From IMG/VR virus record IMGVR_UViG_3300036791_000660, positions 1 through 56,956 of that record: DNA of 56,956 nt; one strand, 5' to 3'. The notes under the pieces are model-generated. The model made no database searches and was not told where the DNA came from. It was given only the letters and a program-made list of their open reading frames with translations. This stretch comes from a virus (lineage: Duplodnaviria > Caudoviricetes). Position numbers and translations under genes: made by a program. Positions 1-44,899 of the stretch are shown piece by piece (position 1 is the first letter of the stretch; each line of letters opens with the position of its first letter).

Positions 1-545
1 CTAGCCCACCCCCGGCACGACACGGCAGGCGCGGCTCGGACTGGCGCGACAAGGATGGCGAGGAACGCGGGGCCGGGTCAGGCAACGCATGGTCTGGCGT
101 GGCAGGCCTGTCGAGTCTTGGCATGCCGAGACTTCTCCGGGCGTGACTTCGCTGCGCGAGGCGGGGCCGGGCATGGCAGGCGTGGCATGGTTTTGCGGGG
201 TTGGGCACGACGAGCCGAGCCAAGGCATGGCTGGTGCGGCTAGGCGAGGAAGCCAAGGGATGGCCAGCAGCGGCGCGGTGAGGCCGGCCACGGCACGGCA
301 GGTGCGGCGGGGCAACCCAAGGCGCGACGGGGGAGGCTTGGCTTCCCACGGTCCGGCACGGTGAGGCAGGCAAGTCGAGGCAAGACACGATGTGACATGG
401 CACGATGCGGTTCGGCAGGCGCGGCTAGGAGTTCGCGACGAGGTAGGCAAGGCGGGGCTGGGTGCGGCAGGTCTGGCGCGTCGAGGCGAGGGTCGCGGGG
501 CGTGGCGGGGCAAGGCACGCAATCACATGGCACGGCAGGCACGAC
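1..545 (+). ncRNA. Array of degenerate GGY-NN pentamer-repeat units (putative multi-guide RNA precursor), truncated by the window start
   Basis: 5-nt periodicity (ggcgc ggctc ggact ggcgc gacaa...). Units are delimited by GGCAGG at 24, 101, 175, 297, 365, 414, 466 and 534 and by GGCTGG at 229. No credible ORF. The repeat is seen directly; RNA status is inferred. Confidence 0.8.
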
Positions 546-548
546 ATC

Positions 549-597
549 TGCCAGTTACTGTCAGGCACTACTGACGGTCTATTGCCAACTTCTGTCA
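549..597. promoter_or_regulatory. Two TGCCA-N5-TGTCA operator-like sites (549-563, 583-597)
   Basis: The motif recurs at about ten intergenic or promoter-proximal positions in the window. Confidence 0.65.
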
Positions 598-610
598 ATA
601 AGCCTATATG
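582..610 (+). promoter_or_regulatory. sigma70-type promoter
   Basis: TTGCCA-17 nt-TATATG upstream of the Gly-rich gene. Confidence 0.65.
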
Positions 611-665: not shown

Positions 666-1457
666 ATGTTGCGGCGTAAATTGTTGATGGCCGTCCTCGG
701 AGTCGTGGCGGCTGGTGGAGCGATGACGGCGGCCGATGCCCTCGCCAAAGGTGGTGGCGGCGGTTCCGGTGGCGGTGGTTCGGGCGGCGGTGGCGGCTCG
801 GGCGGTGGTGGTTCTGGCGGAGGAGGTTCCGGTGGCGGATCAGGAGGAGGTGGCGGCGGCTCCGGCGGAGGCGGGGGTTCCGGCGGTGGTAGCGGCAGCG
901 GGGGCGGTGGCTCCGGTGGTGGCTCGGGTGGCGGCGGAAGCGGCTCGGGCGGCGGCAGCGGCGGAGGCGGCGGATCGGGCGGTGGCGGCTCGGGCGGTGG
1001 CTCTGGCGGCGGTGGTGGCGGCTCGGGCGGAGGCTCGGGCGGTGGAGGCGGCGGCTCGGGCAGCGGCGGCGGAGGCGGCTCAGGCGGCGGAGGGTCGGGC
1101 GGCGGCAGCGGCGGCGGTGGTTCGGGCGGCGGTGGTAGCGGTTCTGGTGGCGGTGGGTCTGGCGGCGGCGGTGGCGGCTCGGGTGGCGGCTCTGGCGGCA
1201 GCGGTGGCGGTTCTGGTGGTGGCGGTTCCGGTGGCGGTGGCGGTGGCGGATCGGGCTCCGGTGGCGGCGATGCTGGCGGTGGCGGTGGCGGCGGTGCTTC
1301 TGGCGGTGGGAGTGCTGGTGGCGGGTCGAGTGCTGGGTCTAGCTCCGGGTCTGGGGCTGGCGCTGGTGCCGGGGCCTCTGCCTCGGGCGCCTCGGGTCCG
1401 TCAGGAGCCGACGGCGTCAACAACGTGAACGAGTTCTTCCGTTCGCGTCGTCGGTAG
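666..1457 (+). CDS. Exported Gly/Ser-rich low-complexity protein
   Basis: AGGAG RBS. N-terminal MLRRKLLMAVLGVVAAGG...ALA signal peptide, then a long GGGGS-type tract with varied wobble bases. Confidence 0.7.
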   Translation: MLRRKLLMAVLGVVAAGGAMTAADALAKGGGGGSGGGGSGGGGGSGGGGSGGGGSGGGSGGGGGGSGGGGGSGGGSGSGGGGSGGGSGGGGSGSGGGSGGGGGSGGGGSGGGSGGGGGGSGGGSGGGGGGSGSGGGGGSGGGGSGGGSGGGGSGGGGSGSGGGGSGGGGGGSGGGSGGSGGGSGGGGSGGGGGGGSGSGGGDAGGGGGGGASGGGSAGGGSSAGSSSGSGAGAGAGASASGASGPSGADGVNNVNEFFRSRRR

Positions 1458-2491: not shown

Positions 2492-3415
2492 ATGATCATC
2501 AGCAAGCCCGGCTTCTACAACGAAGTGCCGGAAACCGACTATCACGGCGACCCCGTGAAAGACCTGTCGCTAAGCTCGGACGTGGTCAAGCTGATGGCCC
2601 TGAAGTCGCCGCGCCACGCCAAGCACGCCCACCCGCGCCTGACCGATCAGCCCAAGAAGGACGCGCCCGACCGCGCCATGTGCATCGGCAGCGCCGCTCA
2701 CAAGAGGCTGCTCGGCCGGGGCCGCCAGATCGACGTGCTGGCCTACGACGACTATCGCAAGAACGACGCCAAGGACCAGCGCGACGCCGCACTGGCAGCC
2801 GGCAACGTGCCGGTGCTGGCCGCCGACATGGAGAAGGTCGAGGCCATGGTGAAGGCGGCCGAAGAACAGCTTGCCGAACTGGGCCACGCCGACATCTTCA
2901 CCGGCGGCCACGCCGAGGTGACGATGGTCTGGCAGGAGAGGAAGAACGGCGTGTGGTGCCGCTCGCGGCCGGACTACATCCACGACGAGGCGCGCAAGGG
3001 CGGCCACATCATCGTGCCCGAACTGAAGACGACCGAGGGCTCGGCCCATCCCGACGACTGGTCCACGACCTGCGCCGGCATGGGCCACGACTATCAGGCC
3101 TGCCTGCGTGAGCGCGGCCTGAAGGCGCTGATCCCCGGCCTCAAGAGCGTCGAGACGCTGTGGGTCGTGCTGGAGCAGAAGCCGCCCTACGGCCTGTCGC
3201 TCGTCACCATGGACAACCAGACGCGGACCGAGATCAGCGACATGGTCGCCCTCGCCATCGAGGCATGGGACGGCTGTCTGAAGACCGGCCAGTGGCCGTC
3301 CTACGAGCGCGGCGTGCTCGACGCCAAGCCGTGGCGCTCGATGTCCACCGAGCTTCGCCGGCAGGCGCTGCTCGACCGTGTCGCCCACTGGCAGCGCCCG
3401 CTGGAGAGCGCGTGA
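2492..3415 (+). CDS. PD-(D/E)XK exonuclease, RecE/ExoVIII (DUF3799)-like
   Basis: YH..LSLSS, GSAAH, CRSRPD..ELKTT and DYQA motifs; followed by an AAA gene. Confidence 0.85.
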   Translation: MIISKPGFYNEVPETDYHGDPVKDLSLSSDVVKLMALKSPRHAKHAHPRLTDQPKKDAPDRAMCIGSAAHKRLLGRGRQIDVLAYDDYRKNDAKDQRDAALAAGNVPVLAADMEKVEAMVKAAEEQLAELGHADIFTGGHAEVTMVWQERKNGVWCRSRPDYIHDEARKGGHIIVPELKTTEGSAHPDDWSTTCAGMGHDYQACLRERGLKALIPGLKSVETLWVVLEQKPPYGLSLVTMDNQTRTEISDMVALAIEAWDGCLKTGQWPSYERGVLDAKPWRSMSTELRRQALLDRVAHWQRPLESA

Positions 3416-3624: not shown

Positions 3625-3965
3625 GAAAGAAACGGCAGATGGAAGTCCGCGCGCCCAACGCCATCGAAGACGAGCAACTGGACTCGCTGGCGCAGTATCT
3701 GGCCGACGCCATGGAGCACTGGCGCAAACACCGGCGCCTGCGCGGGCTCGACGCCGACGTGGCGATCAACGCCCACGCCTGCTGCATCGCGCGGATCATC
3801 ACGCACTGCCCCGACGACGAGAAGCGCTCCGCCATGACGGCGTCGCTGCTCTACTTCCTGTGCGCCGAGACCAAGAGCGACATCGGCATGATGCTCGACT
3901 ACGTCAACCTGATGAGCGCGCAGGACAAGGCCCTGCTGCTGCATGGAGTCGTCGGACATGGCTGA
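3621..3965 (+). CDS. Hypothetical protein
   Basis: Coupled ORF in the operon. Confidence 0.6.
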   Translation: MRKKRQMEVRAPNAIEDEQLDSLAQYLADAMEHWRKHRRLRGLDADVAINAHACCIARIITHCPDDEKRSAMTASLLYFLCAETKSDIGMMLDYVNLMSAQDKALLLHGVVGHG

Positions 3966-5067
3966 GATCGCGCACTACAAGTTCAGCCCCGCCAAGCGCG
4001 AGGGCGTCGGTCTGTTCATCGGCTTGGCCGGTGGCACGGGCTCGGGCAAGACCTTCTCTGCGCTCCGTCTGGCGCGCGGCATCGTCGGGCCTGACGGCAA
4101 GATCGCGGCGGCCGACAGCGAGGGCCGACGCATGAGCCACTACGCCGGCATGATGGGCGGCTTCGATGTCACCGACCTCGAACCGCCGTTCCGCCCGGAC
4201 AAGTACGAGCAGGTCGCCAAGGACGCCGAGGCCGCCGGCTACAAGGTGCTTATCGTGGATTCGATGAGCCACGAGTGGTCGGGCGACGGCGGCGTGGTCG
4301 AGTGGCACGACGAAGAACTCGACCGGGCCTACGCCAAGGCGGTGCAGAATGCCCGCGAGGGCGACACCGTCGATGAGGAGAGGGTCCGCAACGCCAACAA
4401 CATGCGCGCGTGGATCAGGCCGAAGACGGCGCACAAGCAGATGGTGCAGAGCTTCCTCCAGCGCCGCATCCCGGTGATCTTCTGCTTCCGCGCCGAGGAG
4501 AAGATCAAGGTGCTGCCCAACGGCCGCATCGAGGCGATGGGCTGGACGCCGATTGGCGACCAGCGGTTCATGTTCGAGTTGACGGTGATGATCACGCTGG
4601 CGAACGACCGGCCGGGCTGCGTCAACTACGACCTGCCGCGCAAGATTCAGGAGCAGCACATGCTGCTGTTCCCCGACAAGAAGCCGATCACCGAGGACGC
4701 TGGGGCCAAGCTGGCGGCATGGGCGCGCGGCGAGGACATCGTGCCGGAGAAGAAGGCCGCGCCGGCCAAGAAGGAGCCCGAGCAGAAGCCGGCGGCAGCC
4801 GCCACGACCAGCGGCGGCGAATTGGCACTGGGCGACAGCGACAAGGCGGCAGCGGCGGCCAAGCGGATTATCGACGGCGTGGCGGCGCTGAAGACGCGCA
4901 TCGCCGAGGCCAAGACCGGCGAGGCCGTGACGGCGATCCTTCAGGAGGCCGAGGTGCGCAAGCAACTGGCGTACCTGTCGAAGAACCGCAAGGACCTCAA
5001 CAAGGAAGTGATCGACGCCGCCAACGCCCGCCGCCGCGCCCTGCGCGACGCGAAGAAGGCGGCATGA
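3958..5067 (+). CDS. AAA-family ATPase (phage recombination, Sak4-like)
   Basis: Walker A GGTGSGKT, Walker B VLIVDSMSHEW; located near the RecE-like nuclease. Confidence 0.8.
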   Translation: MAEIAHYKFSPAKREGVGLFIGLAGGTGSGKTFSALRLARGIVGPDGKIAAADSEGRRMSHYAGMMGGFDVTDLEPPFRPDKYEQVAKDAEAAGYKVLIVDSMSHEWSGDGGVVEWHDEELDRAYAKAVQNAREGDTVDEERVRNANNMRAWIRPKTAHKQMVQSFLQRRIPVIFCFRAEEKIKVLPNGRIEAMGWTPIGDQRFMFELTVMITLANDRPGCVNYDLPRKIQEQHMLLFPDKKPITEDAGAKLAAWARGEDIVPEKKAAPAKKEPEQKPAAAATTSGGELALGDSDKAAAAAKRIIDGVAALKTRIAEAKTGEAVTAILQEAEVRKQLAYLSKNRKDLNKEVIDAANARRRALRDAKKAA

Positions 5068-10314: not shown

Positions 10315-10638
10315 ATGACACCGAACGACGAACTCCTGATCCCCGCGTTCCTGCGGGCGACAGGACCAGTGAAGAAGGTCCGCGCACCACGCTGGAAGAA
10401 GATGGCCAAGGTCGAGAAGCCGACGGCCGAGCGCTACGAGGACGCCGAACGCTACGAGGTGTTCATCGAGTCCACTGAGACCTTCCTGCGCAAGATCGCC
10501 TGCGGTCTGCGCCGGGTGTGGGTCGCCGAGGACGAGACCGGAGCGCGCAAGGTCTGGCTGCACGACGGCGAGACCGAGCAGAGCCTGCCGATGAGCGAGT
10601 GGCAGCGCATGTCCAACAAGGCGCGGAGGATCGCATGA
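10315..10638 (+). CDS. Hypothetical protein
   Basis: CTAGGAGAGAGC leader. Confidence 0.65.
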   Translation: MTPNDELLIPAFLRATGPVKKVRAPRWKKMAKVEKPTAERYEDAERYEVFIESTETFLRKIACGLRRVWVAEDETGARKVWLHDGETEQSLPMSEWQRMSNKARRIA

Positions 10639-11201
10639 CCGTCGCCGACGCCGTCTATACCGCGACCAACGCGCTGTGGATTCCGGTCGCCGACCAGATC
10701 GGAGTCTTCACGATGGCGGACGGGCTCAAGCTCGCCCGCCACCTGTGGGGCAAGTTCGGCGGGCGCACGGTGCGCTACCCCTACCGCGACGCCAACATGA
10801 TGCGGGGCCGGCGCGTCTGGGCGTCGTCGCCCACGAACCACCGCAGCCTCGCCCGTGGCGCGCGGCGCGTGGTGCACGATGTCAGCCACGCCCTGCATCA
10901 TGCGCGCTCGAACGGCCGCTTGCTCGATCACTGCCTGCCCCACGCCGAGCTTGAACGCGACATGGTGCGCTACGTGATCGAGGCCGGGCTGTACCGCAAG
11001 GTTGTCGAGCCGAAGCCCACCACCGACCAGCGCCGGGCGCGTGAGCTTGGTCGCACCATCGCCGGGATCAGGCGCTGGGAGACCAAGGCCAAGCGCGCCA
11101 ACACGGCCTTGAAAAAGCTGCGCCTCAAGGCGCGTCGGCTCAACGCCCTCGTTGCAGGGTCTGTGCAAGACTGCCAGAAACTGTCCACAGGTCCCTTGTA
11201 A
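10635..11201 (+). CDS. Hypothetical protein with HDVSH..H motif and basic C-terminal helix
   Basis: GGAGG RBS; ATGA overlap. Confidence 0.6.
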   Translation: MTVADAVYTATNALWIPVADQIGVFTMADGLKLARHLWGKFGGRTVRYPYRDANMMRGRRVWASSPTNHRSLARGARRVVHDVSHALHHARSNGRLLDHCLPHAELERDMVRYVIEAGLYRKVVEPKPTTDQRRARELGRTIAGIRRWETKAKRANTALKKLRLKARRLNALVAGSVQDCQKLSTGPL

Positions 11202-11302: not shown

Positions 11303-11358
11303 CTCGACCCCCAGCCCCGCCCGGCCCTGAAAAGCCGAGGCGGGGTCGGGGCGTTGAG
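11303..11358 (+). repeat. Conserved intergenic hairpin, copy 1
   Basis: GCCCCGCC-CGGC-cctgaaaa-GCCG-a-GGCGGGGT with an extended outer stem. Confidence 0.7.
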
Positions 11359-11407
11359 AGAACCGGCGAAGCAGCCCGAACGTAGGGCACGGCCACTAGG
11401 AGCGAGC

Positions 11408-11884
11408 ATGGCGAACCTTTTTGAGAGCGAGACTTGCAGCCGCTGCGGTGGCACTGGCCACTACAGCTACTGCCAGATGCACGGCACCACGTGCTTCGGT
11501 TGCAGTGGTCGCAAGGTCAAGCTCACCAAGCGCGGCTACGCTGCGCAGCAGTGGCTGATCAAGCAGCAGTCGAAGCCGGTCAGCGAGCTTCAGGTCGGCG
11601 ACCTGATCCGCGAGGAGGATTTCTTTTCGAGCCTGATCGCGTGGATGCGAATCGACAAGATCGAGGTCGATGCCGACGGCAGGTTCAACCTGTCGGTGTC
11701 GTACCAGCGCAAGCACGAGACCACGCGCCGCGAGCTTGGCTTCAACGGCCTCCCGGCGACCGACACCAAGCGGGTCCGGCCCGGCACCAAGGCCGAGCTT
11801 CGCTGGCAGCAGATGGTCGGCCTCGCTTATCAGGCGACGCTCACCAAGGCCGGTACGGTGCGCAAGGCCCGCAAGGCCGCCTAA
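11408..11884 (+). CDS. Zn-finger (CxxCxGxG) hypothetical protein
   Basis: CSRCGGTG..CFGCSG; CTAGGAGCGAGC leader. Confidence 0.7.
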   Translation: MANLFESETCSRCGGTGHYSYCQMHGTTCFGCSGRKVKLTKRGYAAQQWLIKQQSKPVSELQVGDLIREEDFFSSLIAWMRIDKIEVDADGRFNLSVSYQRKHETTRRELGFNGLPATDTKRVRPGTKAELRWQQMVGLAYQATLTKAGTVRKARKAA

Positions 11885-18110: not shown

Positions 18111-18470
18111 ATGAGTAGGAACTACAAGACCAAGATCGGCGTGCAGTGGGGCAGCCTTGCGCTCGCCAGCACGAACCTCTCCGACAAGGCCGAGACCCAG
18201 TTGCGGGTACGCCGGGTGAAGCCTTCGGACGAACCCGAGCACGTGCAGGTCGAGGTCGAGATCGTCCGCGTCGGCGCGATGCGGCGCGCCAGCTATCACG
18301 GCTACATCCAGCTTGACGCCAAGCAGGCCAAGGCACTGGCGACGGCGGTCAGCAAGGTCCAGCCGGACTACGACCGGGACTCGCCGCTCGCCGGCCTGCA
18401 AGCCGATTCGGACAAGGCGTGGGCCGAATTCTACGGCATCGACCCCAAGGATATGGCGAGGTTCCTGTGA
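18111..18470 (+). CDS. Hypothetical protein
   Basis: Coupled ORF. Confidence 0.55.
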   Translation: MSRNYKTKIGVQWGSLALASTNLSDKAETQLRVRRVKPSDEPEHVQVEVEIVRVGAMRRASYHGYIQLDAKQAKALATAVSKVQPDYDRDSPLAGLQADSDKAWAEFYGIDPKDMARFL

Positions 18471-18988
18471 AAAAATGTAACGTGAACCCCAAGCTTCTGA
18501 TCGACTTCTTCGACGGCACCGAGTTCGACTTCCTGTCCAATTTCCACCCGGCCTGCATCACGTGGGAGGGCAAGAAGTGGCCAAGCACCGAGCACGCCTT
18601 TCAGGCGGCCAAGACGACCGACGTGGCCTATGCCGAGCGCATCCGGCGCGCCCTGTCGCCGGGTCACGCCAAGTCGCTCGGCCAGCGGTCCTCGTTCATG
18701 CACTACGGCGTGGCGCTGCGGCCCGACTGGGACACGGTGAAGTACGACATCATGCTCGACCTGCTGCGGCTCAAGTTCGCCATCCCGTCGCTGCGCAAAG
18801 CCCTGCTGGCGACCGGCAACGCCAAGCTGGTTGAGGGCAACAGTTGGAACGACCGTGACTGGGGCGTCTGCGGCGAGGGCGCCAACAACCTCGGCCGCTC
18901 GCTGATGCTGGTGCGCGCCGAGATCAGGGCCGAGATCGCCGAGGCCAATCTGGAATATCTGACAGGAGAGAAGCATGGGACTCTTTAG
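18467..18988 (+). CDS. NADAR (YbiA-like) family ADP-ribose hydrolase
   Basis: FLSNF..STEHAFQAAK..RPDWD..KF..LLATG..LVEG..DRDWG..G.NNLGRSLM.VR. Confidence 0.9.
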   Translation: MKKCNVNPKLLIDFFDGTEFDFLSNFHPACITWEGKKWPSTEHAFQAAKTTDVAYAERIRRALSPGHAKSLGQRSSFMHYGVALRPDWDTVKYDIMLDLLRLKFAIPSLRKALLATGNAKLVEGNSWNDRDWGVCGEGANNLGRSLMLVRAEIRAEIAEANLEYLTGEKHGTL

Positions 18989-32845: not shown

Positions 32846-34534
32846 CTAGCCCTGCACCACGGAGATTTGCGAAGTCGAGGTGAAGAAGTACGACTGCGGA
32901 TCGCCGAAGATCAGGAAGGTGCCGGCGCTGGGCAGCGTGCCGATGCCGTTGATCGACACCGCGAAGGTCAGCACCGAGATGAAGGTCGGGCCGAGCACGT
33001 TCTCGACGGCGGTCTGGAACACGTCCTCCATCACCAAGACGTTGAGCGGCTGGCCGACGATCACCGAGTTCACGTAGTCGGCGAGCGCCGGGGCGGCGAG
33101 TTGGGCGATGGCGGCGGCCGAGATGAAGTTCGGCGAGTCGGTGTTCCACGTCACCGTCATCGTCACCGTCTGCTGCGGCGGCACGACGAAGTTCACCACG
33201 TAGGTGTCGGGGTAGTCGGTGATCGTGACCGCGAGGTTGCGGTTGTTGGGCGTCACCACGCCGCCCGACACGTAGGCCGGCAGGCCGGTCGAATCGAAGT
33301 TGGCGATGCCCGCCTGAAGCTGGCCGAGCACCGTCTCGGCGCCGGGATTGGTGGCCAGCGGGAAAGTGATGGTGGTGCCCGACGCGGTGGTCGCCACGAA
33401 GGTGCCGTTCCAGCCGGCCGGCGTCGAGCCCGCCAGCGCGAAGGTCGAGCCCGGCGTCACGTTGTGCGCCACCAAGGTGGTCGCCGTGGCGACGCCAGCG
33501 GCCCACGCCAGCGACGCCAACTGGTTGGCCGGATAGGCCGTGCCAAGCTGGAAAGTCTTCTCCGAGGGCACCGCGAGGATGGCGTGGTTGCCGTTGAAGC
33601 CCACCGGGTTGACGCCGGCGAGCGTGATCGGCTGGCCGACCAGATAGCCGTGGTTGAGGTCGGTCGTGACCACCGCCGGGTTGGCGTTGGTGATGTTGGT
33701 GACGCTGACCGTCGAGCCGACCAAGTTCGAGATGTCGAACAGCGCAGTGTAGATCGCGTTGGCGACATCGTAGGGATCGCCGCCGCCCACGATGATCATC
33801 CAGCCACCGGCCGGGCCGGGCTGCTGCTGGATTCCAATCAGGCGCGATTGGACTCCGGGCACGTTCTCCAACAGCGTGCGCAGGTAGCGCGGCATGCCCT
33901 GTGAGGCCGCCAGCCCCGCCTGAAGCACCCGCGCCCGGTACATGCTCTCGGTCTCGGCGTCGGTGCCGGGGACGCCGGCCTCGGGATTAACGACGGTCAG
34001 CGTGAAGCCGGTCGGCGGCGGCGTGATCAGTTGCGTCACCACCCCCGGCGGCACGCTGAAAGAGCCGGCCTGCGTGGCGAGGGCGAACAGCGGATCGCTC
34101 TGGCCGGACTGGCCGATGATGCCGCCATCCCGCAGCGCATATTGGAAGTTGCCGTCGGAGACGATGAAGCCCTTGCCGATCACGAAGCCCGGCAGGCCGG
34201 AGAACACCACCAAGACGCTGGTGTTGCTGGCCGTACCGGGAACTACGCCATAGACCTCGCCAAGCTCGGCGAGGATGAAGGCGTTGCAGCCGAACGGCGT
34301 CAGCGAGTTGACGGTCTCGACGCGCGCCAGATCGGCCAGCACCAGCGACTGCACGTCGGTGCTGACGATGTCCTCGACCAGCGAGCCCGGCAAATTTCCG
34401 CTGAAACCCGGATTCGTCGCCGACACGCCGGACACCACCTCCTCGCGCAGCGTGAGAGGCGGCGTCGGCACCAGCCCGGCCGGGCCGATGACAGTCGGAA
34501 GTTCGCTCCCCGATGGCGGGATCGGATCGGCCAT
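32846..34534 (-). CDS. Baseplate J-like protein
   Basis: NLPGSLVEDI, AETESMYRARVLQA and GGGDPYDVA.AI motifs; synteny. Confidence 0.8.
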   Translation of the reverse strand: MADPIPPSGSELPTVIGPAGLVPTPPLTLREEVVSGVSATNPGFSGNLPGSLVEDIVSTDVQSLVLADLARVETVNSLTPFGCNAFILAELGEVYGVVPGTASNTSVLVVFSGLPGFVIGKGFIVSDGNFQYALRDGGIIGQSGQSDPLFALATQAGSFSVPPGVVTQLITPPPTGFTLTVVNPEAGVPGTDAETESMYRARVLQAGLAASQGMPRYLRTLLENVPGVQSRLIGIQQQPGPAGGWMIIVGGGDPYDVANAIYTALFDISNLVGSTVSVTNITNANPAVVTTDLNHGYLVGQPITLAGVNPVGFNGNHAILAVPSEKTFQLGTAYPANQLASLAWAAGVATATTLVAHNVTPGSTFALAGSTPAGWNGTFVATTASGTTITFPLATNPGAETVLGQLQAGIANFDSTGLPAYVSGGVVTPNNRNLAVTITDYPDTYVVNFVVPPQQTVTMTVTWNTDSPNFISAAAIAQLAAPALADYVNSVIVGQPLNVLVMEDVFQTAVENVLGPTFISVLTFAVSINGIGTLPSAGTFLIFGDPQSYFFTSTSQISVVQG

Positions 34535-34569
34535 GGACAATACCTGTCAATTCGTGTTTGGTGGGTGAA

Positions 34570-34651
34570 GCCGCGCCACGGCAAGTCCCGGCGGGGCTAG
34601 GCACGTCGAGGCAAGGTCTGGCCCGGCGGGGTTCGGCAAGGCACGGCAGGC
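34570..34651 (+). ncRNA. Stand-alone GGY-NN repeat cassette A (putative guide RNA)
   Basis: 15 in-phase pentamers ending GGCAGGC; intergenic and antisense to the late genes. Confidence 0.8.
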
Positions 34652-35044
34652 TTAGAGTGGGATCGGCACGCTCACGTCGATCTTCAGGCCAGCATGAGTG
34701 ACGATGTTGATGCGGTAGACCGGCGTCGTCGGATCAGGGACTTTGGCGATGATCAGCGAGGCGAACTGCGCAGCGAATCGCTTCTGGGTCATCACGACTT
34801 CAAAATCGGGGAAGACCTGCTGCAACACGCTGTAGGCCGCCGCGATGCCCCAGTCGGCATAAAACGGGCTCTCGCCTGCGTTCAGCAGCAGCACCTGCGC
34901 CAGCGCCGTCAGCATCACCATGTCGTTGAAGCCCTTGGCATCGGTCGTGACCACGACCCACTTCTTCGGCCCCTTGTTGAAGCTGATGTTGCTGCCGGGT
35001 GGACCGCCGAGCGGCGTGGCCGGGATGCGGCCGTAGGTCCTCAT
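34652..35044 (-). CDS. Baseplate wedge subunit (gp25-like)
   Basis: MRTYGR..L.LN.GESPFYADWGI; between spike and J. Confidence 0.65.
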   Translation of the reverse strand: MRTYGRIPATPLGGPPGSNISFNKGPKKWVVVTTDAKGFNDMVMLTALAQVLLLNAGESPFYADWGIAAAYSVLQQVFPDFEVVMTQKRFAAQFASLIIAKVPDPTTPVYRINIVTHAGLKIDVSVPIPL

Positions 35045-38100: not shown

Positions 38101-39972
38101 TCACAGCGGGAACGGTGGCGGCGCGAACGCCGCCTGTTCGAGCGACGCCACGACCGAGCCGCCAGTGGCATCGTTGATCGTGACGCCGGCACCGCCGGCC
38201 GGCGCGCCGCCGGCGTACATGTTGCCGCCGAGCGCACGCTCGCGCTGGGCCACCATCTGGGCGACGCTGACGCCGGATACCTTATCGGCCCAGCGTGACG
38301 ACACGCTGTAGGGCTGGCCGCTAGCCCACATCGAGAACACGTCGCGGCTGGTGTGATACTTGTTGAGATATTCGTTCACCATGGCGGACGCGATCTGGTC
38401 CTGCATGCCGGGGTTCGACAGGTACTCTTGCGGCGACACGGTGCGGCCGAGCACGCGGCGGCTCATGGTGGCCAGCGTGCCCGGCATCAGTTGATAGGCG
38501 CCGAGCGCACGGCCTTGCCCCGGCACGTTCGCGCCGAGGATGCCGTAGTTGCCGCTGCTCTCGAACTGCTTGATGACCTGAAGAATCTTCTCCGGGCTGG
38601 CGACGATCTCGCCCTCGTGGACGCGGGCGTCCATGTCGTGCGGCACCACGCCGCCTTCTTGGTAGGCCCCGGTCGTGCCGCCCGACGAACTCGACGGCTG
38701 ACCCGACGCCAGCCAGTCCTGATAGGGCATCGGATTGATGCCGAGCTTCATCGACTCCCGCTGGTAGGCGTCATAGCGCCGCTTGTTGATGCGGTCGCGC
38801 TGCCAGCCCGGCATCTCCTCGGTGGTCGGCATGAAGCCGGGATTGCTGCGCAGCAGGTCGGGCGTGCTGGTGGGCGCGGCCGGCGGCGTGCCCGGCGCAC
38901 CCGTGAACCGCGCGATGAACTCGTAGATCGCCTTGCCGGCCTCAAACAGGCCCTTGGCGAACTTCTCGATGTAGTCCGGCAGCTTCTCCATGAACTCCTT
39001 GAACTCGGGCCGCTGCACCCACTCGCCGATCTTCTTCACGAACACCTCGGCGAAATGCTCCAGCGCCGGCAGGAGCGGCGTCAGGCCCTCGGCGATCAGC
39101 TTCCGCAACCGGCCGGTCACATCTTCCAGCGCGTCCTTGAACTCGCTCCACGCCTTCTCGGCGCCCTCGCGGATGCCGTACTTGCCGACGCCCGCCGTGA
39201 CGCTCTGTTCCTGCTTGGTGATGTCGGCGTCGCTCATGCCGACGGCGCGCTGGACATCCTGCGTGCTCAGCACGCCGCTCAGCCCCATCGCCTCCAGTTG
39301 CCCGGCCCACATGCCCTTGTTGACGCCGCCGAACTTGGACTTCAGCGCCCGGTTGAGGCCCCGGATGTTCTGGAACGCGCCGGCCTCGGGATTGAGCCCG
39401 AGCGCCCGCATGCCGATGTAGGCCGGGCTGCCGATGTCGGCCTGCGCGCCCGCGAAGGCGTCCATCAGCCCTTCGACGTTCATGCCGGTGCCGCCCAAGC
39501 CGATGCGCAGTGACTCGATCTGGCCGGGCGCCATGCCGAGCCCGGCGCGCGTCGCCCGCGTGCCCCGGATCGCATCGGCGAGCTTGTCGAGGCCAAATAG
39601 CAGGCCGCCGCCACCAACCGCACCCGAGATGCCGGCCCACCGCATGAAGCCGAGGCTGGCGTCCTTGATGTGGATCGCGAAGCTCTTGGCGTGCTCGCGC
39701 AGCTTGCCCCACGACACCACCGAATCGCGGGCGTGCACCGCCACGTCCTTGTGGTGGGCGACGATCTGGCGGCCGAGGCTGGCCTGCGCCGTCATCGCCG
39801 CCGTCATCCTCGACATATTTTCCATCGCCGCGCGCTGCTCGGCGGTGACGTTCTTCCAGTCCTTCGGCGTCTGCGCCAGCATCTTGGAGTATTTGGCGAA
39901 GGCGTCTTGGAAGCGCTTGAACTGTTGCTCGTTGACTTCAATGTCAACGACTGATTTTGCGTTTACTGCCAC
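38101..39972 (-). CDS. Tape measure protein with a C-terminal lysozyme-like domain
   Basis: GTG start 5 nt after GGAGG; helical body; FESSGNY..ALGAYQLMP.T..QD motif. Confidence 0.8.
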   Translation of the reverse strand: MAVNAKSVVDIEVNEQQFKRFQDAFAKYSKMLAQTPKDWKNVTAEQRAAMENMSRMTAAMTAQASLGRQIVAHHKDVAVHARDSVVSWGKLREHAKSFAIHIKDASLGFMRWAGISGAVGGGGLLFGLDKLADAIRGTRATRAGLGMAPGQIESLRIGLGGTGMNVEGLMDAFAGAQADIGSPAYIGMRALGLNPEAGAFQNIRGLNRALKSKFGGVNKGMWAGQLEAMGLSGVLSTQDVQRAVGMSDADITKQEQSVTAGVGKYGIREGAEKAWSEFKDALEDVTGRLRKLIAEGLTPLLPALEHFAEVFVKKIGEWVQRPEFKEFMEKLPDYIEKFAKGLFEAGKAIYEFIARFTGAPGTPPAAPTSTPDLLRSNPGFMPTTEEMPGWQRDRINKRRYDAYQRESMKLGINPMPYQDWLASGQPSSSSGGTTGAYQEGGVVPHDMDARVHEGEIVASPEKILQVIKQFESSGNYGILGANVPGQGRALGAYQLMPGTLATMSRRVLGRTVSPQEYLSNPGMQDQIASAMVNEYLNKYHTSRDVFSMWASGQPYSVSSRWADKVSGVSVAQMVAQRERALGGNMYAGGAPAGGAGVTINDATGGSVVASLEQAAFAPPPFPL

Positions 39973-39992
39973 GACACCCTCCATTGAGGGCA

Positions 39993-40094
39993 GAGGATGG
40001 CAGCCGTGAAGCCACCATCCTCCCTTGCCGTGCCTCGACATGCCTCAACACGACACGCCCTGCATTGCAGCGCCTTGCCACGTCGCGCCATGTC
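39993..40094 (-). ncRNA. Stand-alone GGY-NN repeat cassette B (putative guide RNA) with 3' hairpin
   Basis: 14 in-phase pentamers (40094 down to 40025), then a GAGGATGG...CCATCCTC hairpin; TTGACA at 40129-40124. Confidence 0.8.
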
Positions 40095-40255
40095 TGATGC
40101 CAGAGACCGCATTGGACAGGAGGTGTCAATCATGGCCTACCCCCGACGTAGCAGTGCCACGAGATGGCGGTGCCGGTAGTCGTGCGCGGTGCGCCACTCG
40201 AACTCGGGCGTGCGGTCGGCGAACACGTCCACGAAGCCCTCGGTGACGATCCAGT

Positions 40256-44720: not shown

Positions 44721-44768
44721 CACTGCACCTCATTGACAAATGTTGGCGGATGCGGTCAGTCGTCGGCA

Positions 44769-44899
44769 GCCACGGCCAGTCGCGGGATGGCAAGGCCTGT
44801 CACGGCAGCGCTAGGCAGCGCCCGTCGTGGCTCGCCACGGCAAGGCGAGTCGGGGAAGGCACGGCACGGGGAGGGACGGCTCAGCGATGGGCCGTCCCT
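44769..44899 (+). ncRNA. Stand-alone GGY-NN repeat cassette C (putative guide RNA) with 3' hairpin
   Basis: 17 in-phase pentamers (44769-44853), a short tail, and an AGGGACGGC...GCCGTCCCT hairpin; TTGACA at 44733. Confidence 0.8.

What the first reader, a model, noticed from the sequence alone, without database searches (positions are those of the whole stretch)
1..545. Multi-guide array with a GGCAGG phase-shift delimiter; effector gene probably just upstream of the window
Seen: GGCAGG/GGCTGG (a 4-nt GGCA or GGCT unit that breaks the 5-nt phase) recurs every 49-77 nt (spacings 77, 74, 54, 68, 68, 49, 52, 68). This gives 8 complete units of 9-15 pentamers, with occasional 4-nt GG-NN units inside them. 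Cassette A ends in the same GGCAGGC. Inference: the delimiter is a processing or boundary signal, like a CRISPR repeat. The array runs off position 1 and I recognise no RAMP/Cas7-like ORF in the window, so the promoter and effector should lie 5' of it.
Basis: partly seen in the sequence, partly recalled or inferred. Interest (0 to 1): 0.85.

Follow-up and report, generated by a model that had tools for sequence, protein, structure and literature searches.

The report
VIPR guide RNA arrays in phage
This stretch is an array of short guide RNAs of the recently described phage VIPR system, and four smaller copies elsewhere in the genome seem aimed at the tail and baseplate genes of related rival phages.

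Summary
Four shorter cassettes lie at about 34.6, 40.0, 44.8 and 49.6 kb. This is the vrRNA class of VIPR systems, described in 2026 bioRxiv preprints. The 4-nt unit matches their "staggered arrays", in which neighbouring vrRNAs overlap by 1 nt. In 30 long arrays beside vipr genes, 218 of 289 four-nt units are GGCA.

The window is the whole virus record, so no upstream flank exists. A Vipr profile that finds the solved SUSP1 Vipr (E 3.5e-34) finds nothing in the window. Elsewhere, 26 of 28 long arrays with enough flank have vipr within 3 kb. The gene may therefore lie off the record's left end, or the phage may be VIPR-null.

New here: under the published 1-nt-skip rule, cassettes C34 and C44 match conserved, wobble-aligned sites in related phages well above shuffled guides. 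Each site lies in the homologue of the gene beside the cassette, and the phage's own copy matches less well. No target was found for the long array or for C49.

The parts
14..545 (+). Long staggered vrRNA array (A1). GGYNN pentamers. A short leader (14-28) is followed by eight vrRNA-sized units bounded by the shared G of the GGC[AT]|GG junctions at 28, 105, 179, 233, 301, 369, 418, 470 and 538. Unit lengths are 78, 75, 55, 69, 69, 50, 53 and 69 nt.
   Evidence: G 44.5%, C 26.9% on the + strand.
2..4 (+). TAG lying 9 nt before the first GGC. It may be the stop codon of a gene cut off by the record's end. This is inference only, by analogy with vipr-vap-array loci.
   Evidence: In L129 the vap-like ORF stops 7 nt before its array.
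34570..34651 (+). Cassette C34: a single vrRNA of 16 units ending in the same constant GGCAA/GGCAC/GGCAG units as the long array. It has no hairpin and abuts the stop codon of gene 34652-35044 (-).
   Evidence: fold z -0.4.
34374..34420 (-). The phage's own copy of the C34 target, in the Baseplate_J gene (32846-34534, -). It matches 22 of 32 guide positions and is the unique best match in the whole window.
40008..40103 (-). Cassette C40: a single vrRNA, G-rich on the - strand (18 units parsed), directly upstream of gene 38101-39972 (-).
40124..40129 (-). TTGACA box upstream of C40 on its own strand.
39993..40022 (-). 13-bp hairpin at the 3' end of C40.
   Evidence: z -3.08; 2 of 200 shuffles fold as well.
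39923..39975 (-). The phage's own copy of the C40 match, covering the first codons of gene 38101-39972. It matches 24 of 36 positions and is the unique best in the window. It differs from the guide at the start codon (GTG, not ATG) and at a serine codon of the other codon family.
44733..44738 (+). TTGACA box upstream of C44.
44764..44872 (+). Cassette C44: a single vrRNA (17 units used as guide), antisense to the structural operon.
44870..44901 (+). 14-bp hairpin at the 3' end of C44. It overlaps the stop codon of gene 44900-45406 (-).
   Evidence: z -2.60; 0 of 200 shuffles fold as well.
44904..44953 (+). The phage's own copy of the C44 target: the last 17 codons of gene 44900-45406, read on the antisense strand. 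It matches 22 of 34 positions and is the unique best in the window.
49518..49523 (+). TTGACA box upstream of C49.
49558..49622 (+). Cassette C49: a single vrRNA (12 units). It lies in an insertion that splits a protease-scaffold gene which is one ORF in the closest relative.
49623..49646 (+). 10-bp hairpin at the 3' end of C49. Its stem resembles the C44 stem.
   Evidence: z -1.97; 8 of 200 shuffles fold as well.

Best explanation
Bases 14-545 encode a staggered array of about eight VIPR guide RNAs (vrRNAs). Four single-vrRNA cassettes lie in intergenic gaps of the structural operon.

The mechanism below comes from the preprints and was not shown here. Vipr, a small RAMP protein, polymerises along the RNA. 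Each protomer holds one GGY, and the two variable bases of each pentamer are exposed. These NN pairs read double-stranded DNA with every third base skipped, so the complex sits on a coding sequence regardless of wobble changes and blocks transcription. The 4-nt GGCA unit is the junction where two vrRNAs share one G.

Inferred here: cassettes C34 and C44, and perhaps C40, are aimed at conserved sites in a baseplate-J gene, a head-tail-region gene and a long tail-region gene of related phages that lack the cassettes. This phage's own alleles carry mismatches.

Inferred, with odds near even: the vipr-vap genes that load these RNAs lie just beyond the record's left end. Otherwise the RNAs use a Vipr made by another element in the same cell.
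For: Repeat form:
- GGYNN with conserved GGY and variable NN, 10-16 units per vrRNA, against the published 9-16 YNNGG definition.

The same class occurs elsewhere next to Vipr:
- 43 of those 75 carry one protein family within 2.5 kb. That family has a C-terminal glycine loop, and its profile hits PDB 36pp_D 'SUSP1 Vipr protein' at E 3.5e-34.
- 53 of 54 arrays near vipr are on its strand.

Delimiter:
- 218 of 289 four-nt units in 30 long vipr-linked arrays are GGCA, with a median of 8 pentamers between them.
- The staggered-array legend describes a 1-nt overlap between neighbouring vrRNAs.

Targets for C44:
- Best match is 28 of 34 under the 1-nt skip, against 21-22 under skips of 0, 2 or 3. 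In 200 unit-order shuffles the maximum is 24.
- All 12 hits of 24 or more lie at one homologous site in relatives. That site is the 3' end of the homologue of gene 44900-45406.
- One 9-unit stretch matches 18 of 18.

Targets for C34:
- Best match is 25 of 32 in 8 whole relatives, against a maximum of 23 in 300 shuffles.
- In 25 further loci the score is 26 of 32 in three, and the nine best hits all lie 81-88 nt into the baseplate-J match. Of 200 shuffles, 1 reached 26 and the rest were 23 or lower.

Codon phase and position:
- In both C34 and C44 the skipped base falls on the wobble position.
- For C34, C40 and C44 the unique best match in the whole window lies 150 nt or less from the cassette.
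Against: - No vipr and no vap1-like gene is in the record. Six-frame profile search: 0 hits at E<=10. Local hmmsearch: best E 0.39. hhalign: best probability 2.5%. The vap-like profile's best hit is E 0.0058.
- The arrays are degenerate. Only 94 of 160 pentamers are strict GGY, and 7 extra 4-nt units inside the long array would break a guide's register.
- None of the 9 segments of the long array, nor C49, has a match above shuffles in about 2 Mb of related and unrelated phage DNA.
- C40 is not above its shuffles (23-24 of 36 against a null maximum of 25-26), and its best match is the phage's own gene.
- If the constant 3' units are left out, the self-matches of C34 (22 of 26) and C40 (21 of 24) exceed the preprints' 80% line, so self-silencing is not excluded.
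- Consensus scans find no sigma-70 promoter or intrinsic terminator at any cassette.
- There is no RNA evidence.
Confidence: 0.8

Rival explanations
1. VIPR-null phage. The record is complete, the phage has no vipr, and all its vrRNAs are 'solo' guides. They load onto the Vipr of a co-infecting phage or resident prophage and turn it against rivals or decoys, as reported for satellites and 346 Enterobacteriaceae phages.
For: - No Vipr or Vap in the record, and CheckV rates it 100% complete.
- Solo vrRNAs are described in print.
- 19 of 40 short arrays with 1.5 kb or more of upstream flank have no vipr within 3 kb.
- The four cassettes are far from any possible vipr locus.
Against: - 26 of 28 long arrays with enough flank do have vipr within 3 kb, and this one starts 10 nt from the record's end.
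- A Logan contig runs 31 nt past position 1. Its depth is 4.9, against 11.6 for the unique sequence nearby, which suggests a branch in the assembly there.
- None of the 8 whole-genome relatives has vipr, so the likely victims would not supply it.
Confidence: 0.35
2. Self-regulation. The dispersed cassettes repress this phage's own neighbouring late genes (baseplate J, gene 38101-39972, gene 44900-45406) to time or dose them.
For: - Each cassette's best match in its own genome is the gene next to it.
- C40's overall best match is its own gene start.
- The self-matches of C34 and C40 are 85-88% once the constant units are dropped.
Against: - Relatives match better than self for C44 (28, 27 and 26 against 22 of 34) and for C34 (26 and 25 against 22 of 32).
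- Own alleles differ by changes that keep or nearly keep the protein: GTG in place of ATG at the start, and switches of serine and leucine codon family. That looks like avoidance.
- The preprints report no self-targeting at 80% or more.
Confidence: 0.1
3. Not guides at all. They are protein-sponge or leader RNAs that wrap a ring-shaped RNA-binding protein (TRAP-like, one triplet every 5 nt), or DNA-level repeats such as binding arrays, G-quadruplex tracts or Chi-like decoys.
For: - The period of 5 with a conserved triplet resembles TRAP sites (recalled knowledge, not tested).
- The strand is G-rich.
- One array is at a record end.
Against: - The code-specific target matches appear only under the 1-nt skip.
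- The same arrays co-occur with Vipr in 43 of 75 array-bearing loci.
- No such binding protein is evident. The only Anti-TRAP hit is a weak zinc-ribbon match below Pfam's cut-off.
Confidence: 0.03
4. A decaying relic. After loss of vipr-vap the long array is drifting and no longer functions.
For: - Only 94 of 160 units are strict GGY, and there are 7 extra phase shifts inside A1.
- No A1 target was found.
Against: - The conserved junction motif is kept at all nine boundaries.
- The preprint notes frequent internal degeneracy in working vrRNAs.
- The sister cassettes still carry near-perfect guides.
- Targets could be searched in only about 2 Mb.
Confidence: 0.15

Closest known systems
VIPR vrRNA arrays, 'staggered' architecture (bioRxiv 10.64898/2026.04.26.720920; I read Results, Discussion, three methods sections and figure legends)
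   Same: - GGY/NN pentamers, 9-16 per guide.
- Successive guides share 1 nt, seen here as the GGCA|GG unit.
- Arrays lie on the vipr strand, mostly downstream of vipr-vap.
- Targets are read with a 1-nt skip that falls on the wobble base.
   Different: - No vipr or vap in this record.
- More degenerate units.
- The host is probably an alphaproteobacterium from soil, not E. coli or Pseudomonas.
- Which of the seven VIPR types this is cannot be told without the protein.
Solo (orphan) vrRNAs of satellites and VIPR-null SUSP1-like phages (bioRxiv 10.64898/2026.10.15.759431; I read sections 7, 8 and 17 and searched passages)
   Same: - Guide genes without vipr on the same element.
- Self-match is lower than the match to rivals.
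- Targets are wobble-aligned.
   Different: - Those solo guides sit at the former VIPR locus or in one conserved satellite region. They carry the SUSP1 pseudoknot tail and target vipr, other vrRNAs, satellites or REP elements.
- Here four cassettes are scattered through the structural operon with simple hairpin tails or none. The predicted targets are structural genes of relatives, each the homologue of the gene next door.
Free-standing homing endonuclease genes of T-even phages ('intronless homing', marker exclusion). Recalled knowledge; no call.
   Same: A small cassette sits in an intergenic gap next to a conserved gene. Its recognition site lies tens to hundreds of bp away in relatives that lack the cassette. 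The carrier's own allele is made resistant by a few substitutions.
   Different: - The aiming part here is an RNA guide rather than a nuclease.
- Characterised VIPR (type II) silences and does not cut.
- No evidence of gene conversion or cassette spread was obtained.
CRISPR arrays with class 1 (Cas7 backbone) effectors
   Same: - Multi-guide transcript.
- A RAMP protein polymerises on the guide.
- Periodic unpaired positions.
   Different: - No repeat-spacer structure, no cas genes and no adaptation module.
- The guide information is interleaved at 2 of every 5 nt.

Membership tests
VIPR vrRNA | Tandem GGYNN (YNNGG) units, at least 4 in a row and 9-16 per vrRNA | tested here: met
   The long array has 109 parsed units, with 10-16 units between junctions. 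The cassettes have 12-18 units. Strict runs are short: the longest run of canonical units is 8, in C34.
VIPR vrRNA | GGY conserved and NN hypervariable | tested here: met
   Position frequencies are G 0.87, G 0.72 and C+T 0.93. Position 4 is A 0.38 / G 0.37, and at position 5 no base exceeds 0.34. The parse is scored on GGY, so it is partly circular.
VIPR vrRNA | A vipr (minimal RAMP) gene beside the array | tested here: not met
   0 hits at E<=10 in six frames of the record. The same profile finds Vipr in G004 and G005 (E 5.6e-68 and 4.3e-55) and the solved SUSP1 Vipr. The published 'solo vrRNA' subclass does not require a vipr gene. The record may also be cut at the array.
VIPR vrRNA | Target recognised by NN pairs with a 1-nt skip aligned to the codon wobble position | tested here: met
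   Met for C44 and C34. Inconclusive for C40. Not found for C49 or for 9 segments of the long array.
VIPR vrRNA | A constant 3' part (tail or handle) after the variable repeats | tested here: inconclusive
   C40, C44 and C49 end in 10-14-bp hairpins. C34 and every unit of the long array end in constant GGCA(A/C/T)-GGCAG units that never match targets. No pseudoknot tail of the SUSP1 kind was looked for.
VIPR vrRNA | Expressed as small RNAs that co-purify with Vipr | not testable with these tools
   No RNA run holds the stretch.
Staggered vrRNA array | Neighbouring vrRNAs overlap by 1 nt, so the pentamer phase shifts by -1 at each boundary | tested here: met
   There are nine GGC[AT]|GG junctions. 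The same unit makes up 218 of 289 phase shifts in 30 vipr-linked arrays. Actual processing at these points was not tested.
CRISPR array | Direct repeats of about 23-50 nt alternating with unique spacers, with cas genes nearby | tested here: not met
   No such repeats appear in the TRF output. PHROG and Pfam scans of 40 window proteins named no Cas protein. No dedicated Cas library was run.
Homing (selfish) cassette | Target in cassette-free relatives close to the insertion point, and own allele resistant | tested here: met
   The sites lie 32, 33 and 150 nt from C44, C40 and C34. Relatives lack the cassettes. Self-scores are lower than the best relatives for C34 and C44.
Homing (selfish) cassette | DNA break or recombination at the target that copies the cassette | not testable with these tools
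   No evidence either way.

The most novel reading that the evidence does not exclude
The dispersed cassettes are RNA-guided counterparts of free-standing homing genes. Each vrRNA gene is kept next to the resistant allele of the very gene it attacks in related phages. In a mixed infection the guide silences, or through a nuclease-type Vap damages, the rival's sensitive allele. Only recombinants that take over both the cassette and the linked resistant allele escape. The cassette would then spread through the phage population like a natural gene drive, or at least be held in place by poison-antidote linkage.
Probability: 0.15. Interest if true: 0.85.

Novelty: new variant of a known kind. Interest (0 to 1): 0.55.

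Why it matters
The array itself is another example of a class published in 2026, so on that count it is ordinary. What the record adds:

1. It extends VIPR guides to a high-GC soil myovirus whose relatives are seen mostly in alphaproteobacterial assemblies.
2. It gives a case where single guides are scattered through the structural operon rather than kept at a VIPR locus.
3. It gives concrete, testable guide-target pairs in which the target is the homologue of the neighbouring gene. The carrier's own allele is recoded at the start codon and at serine and leucine codons, the only kinds of synonymous change that a wobble-skipping code cannot ignore.

If the linkage is real, it bears on how such guides arise, move and avoid self-harm. 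The preprints leave that question open.

Tried and rejected
Readings considered before the literature search and dropped:
- TRAP-like ring binding.
- Rho-utilisation sites on the C-rich strand.
- G-quadruplex tracts.
- Packaging or Chi-type DNA repeats.
- sRNA sponges.
None explains the skip-1 target matches or the Vipr co-occurrence.

Steps that led nowhere:
- Rfam had no family and there are no tRNAs.
- TRF does not report the array.
- INPHARED has no close relative.
- Consensus promoter and terminator scans were blank at the cassettes. The TTGACA boxes rest on a count only: 5 of the 12 in the window lie within about 60 nt of an array. Two of those five (593-598 and 34545-34550) point away from the G-rich strand.
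- RNA evidence: no RNA holder was listed. Only short DNA contigs could be laid.
- Two exact scans of metagenome contigs for the array's flank found 0.
- The search for related loci found nothing with the 627-aa tail protein or the AAA_24 protein, and found one locus with the exonuclease.
- An ESM Atlas look at the unannotated 188-aa protein 10635-11201 gave only viral hypothetical clusters and no RAMP lead.

Test of generality: in 194 guides from the motif-ascertained loci, the best self-match lies within 400 nt of the array no more often than expected (Vipr-linked, 18 against 16.7 expected; solo, 1 against 2.6 expected). Adjacency is therefore not a general VIPR property in that sample.

Period-5 windows flagged in relatives: 7 of 10 were not GGY arrays. 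The other three are near-identical contigs with one GGT-type cassette for which no target was found.

Not done:
- A collection-wide search for targets of the long array.
- Structure prediction of window proteins.
- Reading the supplements of the preprints, which are closed. Their data S3/S4 and tables may already list this contig or this arrangement.

Statement on print: I did not find 'guide next to its own resistant allele' in the parts of the four preprints that I read, or in the passages found.

Full report
WHAT IS THERE. The window is a complete IMG/VR virus record of 56,956 bp. It is classed 'linear', with CheckV completeness 100%. Plus-strand early genes run from about 660 to 24,164. 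A minus-strand structural operon runs from 56,752 down to 24,419 and holds capsid, sheath, baseplate and fibre genes. It is a myovirus. Its capsid relatives in genome assemblies are mostly alphaproteobacterial: 6 of 7 loci, the seventh a Limnocylindrus MAG. The DNA is held by soil-metagenome runs.

THE OBSERVATION. Bases 14-545 are 5-nt periodic. Identity at lag 5 is 0.48-0.52, against 0.20-0.31 at neighbouring lags, and the eight strongest period-5 windows of the genome all lie here. Four more period-5 tracts lie at 34570-34651 (+), 40008-40103 (G-rich on -), 44764-44872 (+) and 49558-49622 (+). A parse into units gives G, G, C/T at positions 1-3 (87%, 72%, 93%) and mixed bases at positions 4-5. 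Only 94 of 160 pentamers are strict GGY. Bases 1-13 are not part of the array, so it does not run off the record.

WHAT CLASS IT IS. A full-text search for pentanucleotide repeats in phages led to a 2026 preprint on VIPR systems. These comprise a small RAMP protein, Vipr, and vrRNAs of 9-16 YNNGG repeats. The NN pairs read DNA with one base skipped per unit. A figure legend describes 'staggered arrays', in which neighbouring vrRNAs overlap by 1 nt. That is what a GGCA unit followed by GG amounts to.

I tested the link independently of the paper. A 16-nt array motif found 120 viral loci, and 75 of these have period-5 arrays, some longer than 1.5 kb, at G+C from 0.37 to 0.71. Clustering the ORFs within 2.5 kb of those arrays gave one family present in 43 loci, with a C-terminal glycine-rich loop. 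Its profile matches the solved 'SUSP1 Vipr protein' at E 3.5e-34. Of 54 arrays near vipr, 53 are on its strand, 43 of them downstream. In 30 long vipr-linked arrays, 218 of 289 four-nt units are GGCA, typically 7-12 pentamers apart.

THE EFFECTOR. The same profile finds nothing in the window in six frames at E<=10. It does recover Vipr in two control records. Local hmmsearch (best E 0.39) and hhalign against 68 window proteins (best probability 2.5%) agree. The accompanying vap-like family is also absent (best E 0.0058).

Eight whole-genome relatives have no Vipr. No relative's locus has six canonical GGY units in a row. That strict test would also miss most of the window's own arrays.

Against calling the phage VIPR-null, 26 of 28 long arrays with at least 1.5 kb of upstream flank have vipr within 3 kb. 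This array starts 10 nt from the record's end, just after a TAG, much as arrays follow the vap stop codon elsewhere. A 177-nt contig in run X1 extends 31 nt beyond position 1. Its depth is 4.9, against 11.6 for nearby unique sequence. I could not read what lies there, and two metagenome scans for the flank found nothing. The two possibilities remain near even.

PREDICTED TARGETS. I built the guides from the window by coordinates and scanned them as NN-skip-NN patterns over fetched DNA.

C44:
- The best match is 28 of 34, and all 12 hits of 24 or more lie at one site in relatives.
- That site is the last 17 codons of the homologue of gene 44900-45406.
- Skips of 0, 2 or 3 give 21-22. In 200 unit-order shuffles the maximum is 24. 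The phage's own site scores 22.
- A 9-unit stretch matches 18 of 18.

C34:
- The scores are 25, 24, 24, 23, 22 and 22 of 32 at one site in six whole genomes. In 300 shuffles the maximum is 23, and the phage's own site scores 22.
- In 25 further loci the nine best hits (26, 26, 26, 25, 25, 24, 24, 23, 23) all lie 81-88 nt into the Baseplate_J match. One of 200 shuffles reached 26.
- The last three units, which are constant in all these vrRNAs, never match. Without them the best relatives match 25 of 26.

C40:
- The best match anywhere is the first codons of its own downstream gene (24 of 36). One relative reaches 23. This is not above shuffles.
- The phage's own gene differs from the guide at a GTG start, where relatives have ATG, and at a serine codon of the other codon family.

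In all three the skipped base is the wobble base. For all three the single best match in the 57-kb genome lies 150 nt or less from the cassette. By my arithmetic the chance of that is about 0.7% each.

C49 and the nine regular segments of the long array gave nothing above shuffles in about 2 Mb.

ANATOMY OF THE CASSETTES. Relatives have 27-135-nt gaps where this phage has 110-175-nt cassettes. At C49 the closest relative has one fused protease-scaffold ORF. C40, C44 and C49 have a TTGACA box 25-40 nt upstream on the G-rich strand and end in 10-14-bp hairpins. Consensus scans call no promoter or terminator there. C34, C44 and C49 are antisense to the operon.

COMPARISON WITH WHAT IS KNOWN. The class is published, including solo vrRNAs on satellites and on 346 VIPR-null enterobacterial phages. 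A language-model survey also recovered 99 period-5 clusters. What I did not find in the parts I read is single guides scattered through a structural operon, each beside the homologue of its target. That arrangement is not general: 194 guides from other loci show no such adjacency. It resembles free-standing homing endonuclease genes (recalled knowledge). Alternatively it could reflect selection to keep a guide linked to its resistant allele.

VERDICT. The effector's place is unresolved. The array is a new member of a known class. The dispersed, neighbour-targeting cassettes are the part worth following up.

Noticed in passing
window 666-1457 (+): The first gene after the array encodes a signal-peptide-like N-terminus followed by about 230 residues of almost pure Gly/Ser repeats. 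It has no Pfam family. Contig joints in the runs suggest length variation in this repeat.
   Followed up: partly
L270 (Mycobacterium phage Donkeykong, record 36.85-38.44 kb): The CDS annotated as gene 48 'hypothetical protein' is a canonical staggered GGYNN array. Gene 49 matches my Vipr profile (E 4e-69) and gene 50 the vap-like profile (E 6.5e-30). They sit next to the repressor/antirepressor region. This is a culturable VIPR phage of M. smegmatis.
   Followed up: partly
window 49491-49648, against L002 6001-7782: The C49 insertion adds about 20 new codons, a stop, a hairpin, the array, a Shine-Dalgarno sequence and an ATG. It splits what is a single 593-aa protease-scaffold ORF in the closest relative.
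   Followed up: yes
window 39972: Gene 38101-40041, as listed by ORF length, probably starts at GTG 39972. A GGAGG lies 5 nt upstream, and this start agrees with the MAVNAK start of relatives. The ATG at 39984 is the less likely start.
   Followed up: partly
window 593-598 (-), 34545-34550 (-): Two of the five array-flanking TTGACA boxes point away from the G-rich strand. One lies only 10 nt before the baseplate-J start codon. A CTGTCA/TTGACA-like motif recurs in these gaps and may be a protein-binding site rather than a -35 box.
   Followed up: no
L258:11261-11440, L259:12681-12860, L260:9161-9340: Three near-identical relatives carry a short GGT-type pentamer cassette followed by a hairpin and a T-run. 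It is antisense to the tail-fibre region. No target was found.
   Followed up: partly
L160:2161-2320; L107:7541-9220; L135:1961-3560: Other viral contigs show extremes of the class: eleven perfect GGCAG units in a row in an AT-rich phage, and arrays of 1.6-1.7 kb.
   Followed up: no
window 18419-18988 (+), 11354-11884 (+), 2492-3415 (+), 3943-5067 (+): The early region encodes a NADAR-domain protein, a protein with a CxxC zinc-ribbon (weak Anti-TRAP-like match below cut-off), a PDDEXK exonuclease and an AAA_24 recombinase-like protein.
   Followed up: no
window 1-146, run X1: Contig depth over the first 100 bases is 4.9, against 11.6 for 1401-2700. A strain variant with five substitutions covers 544-599. 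The sample therefore holds more than one version of this end.
   Followed up: no
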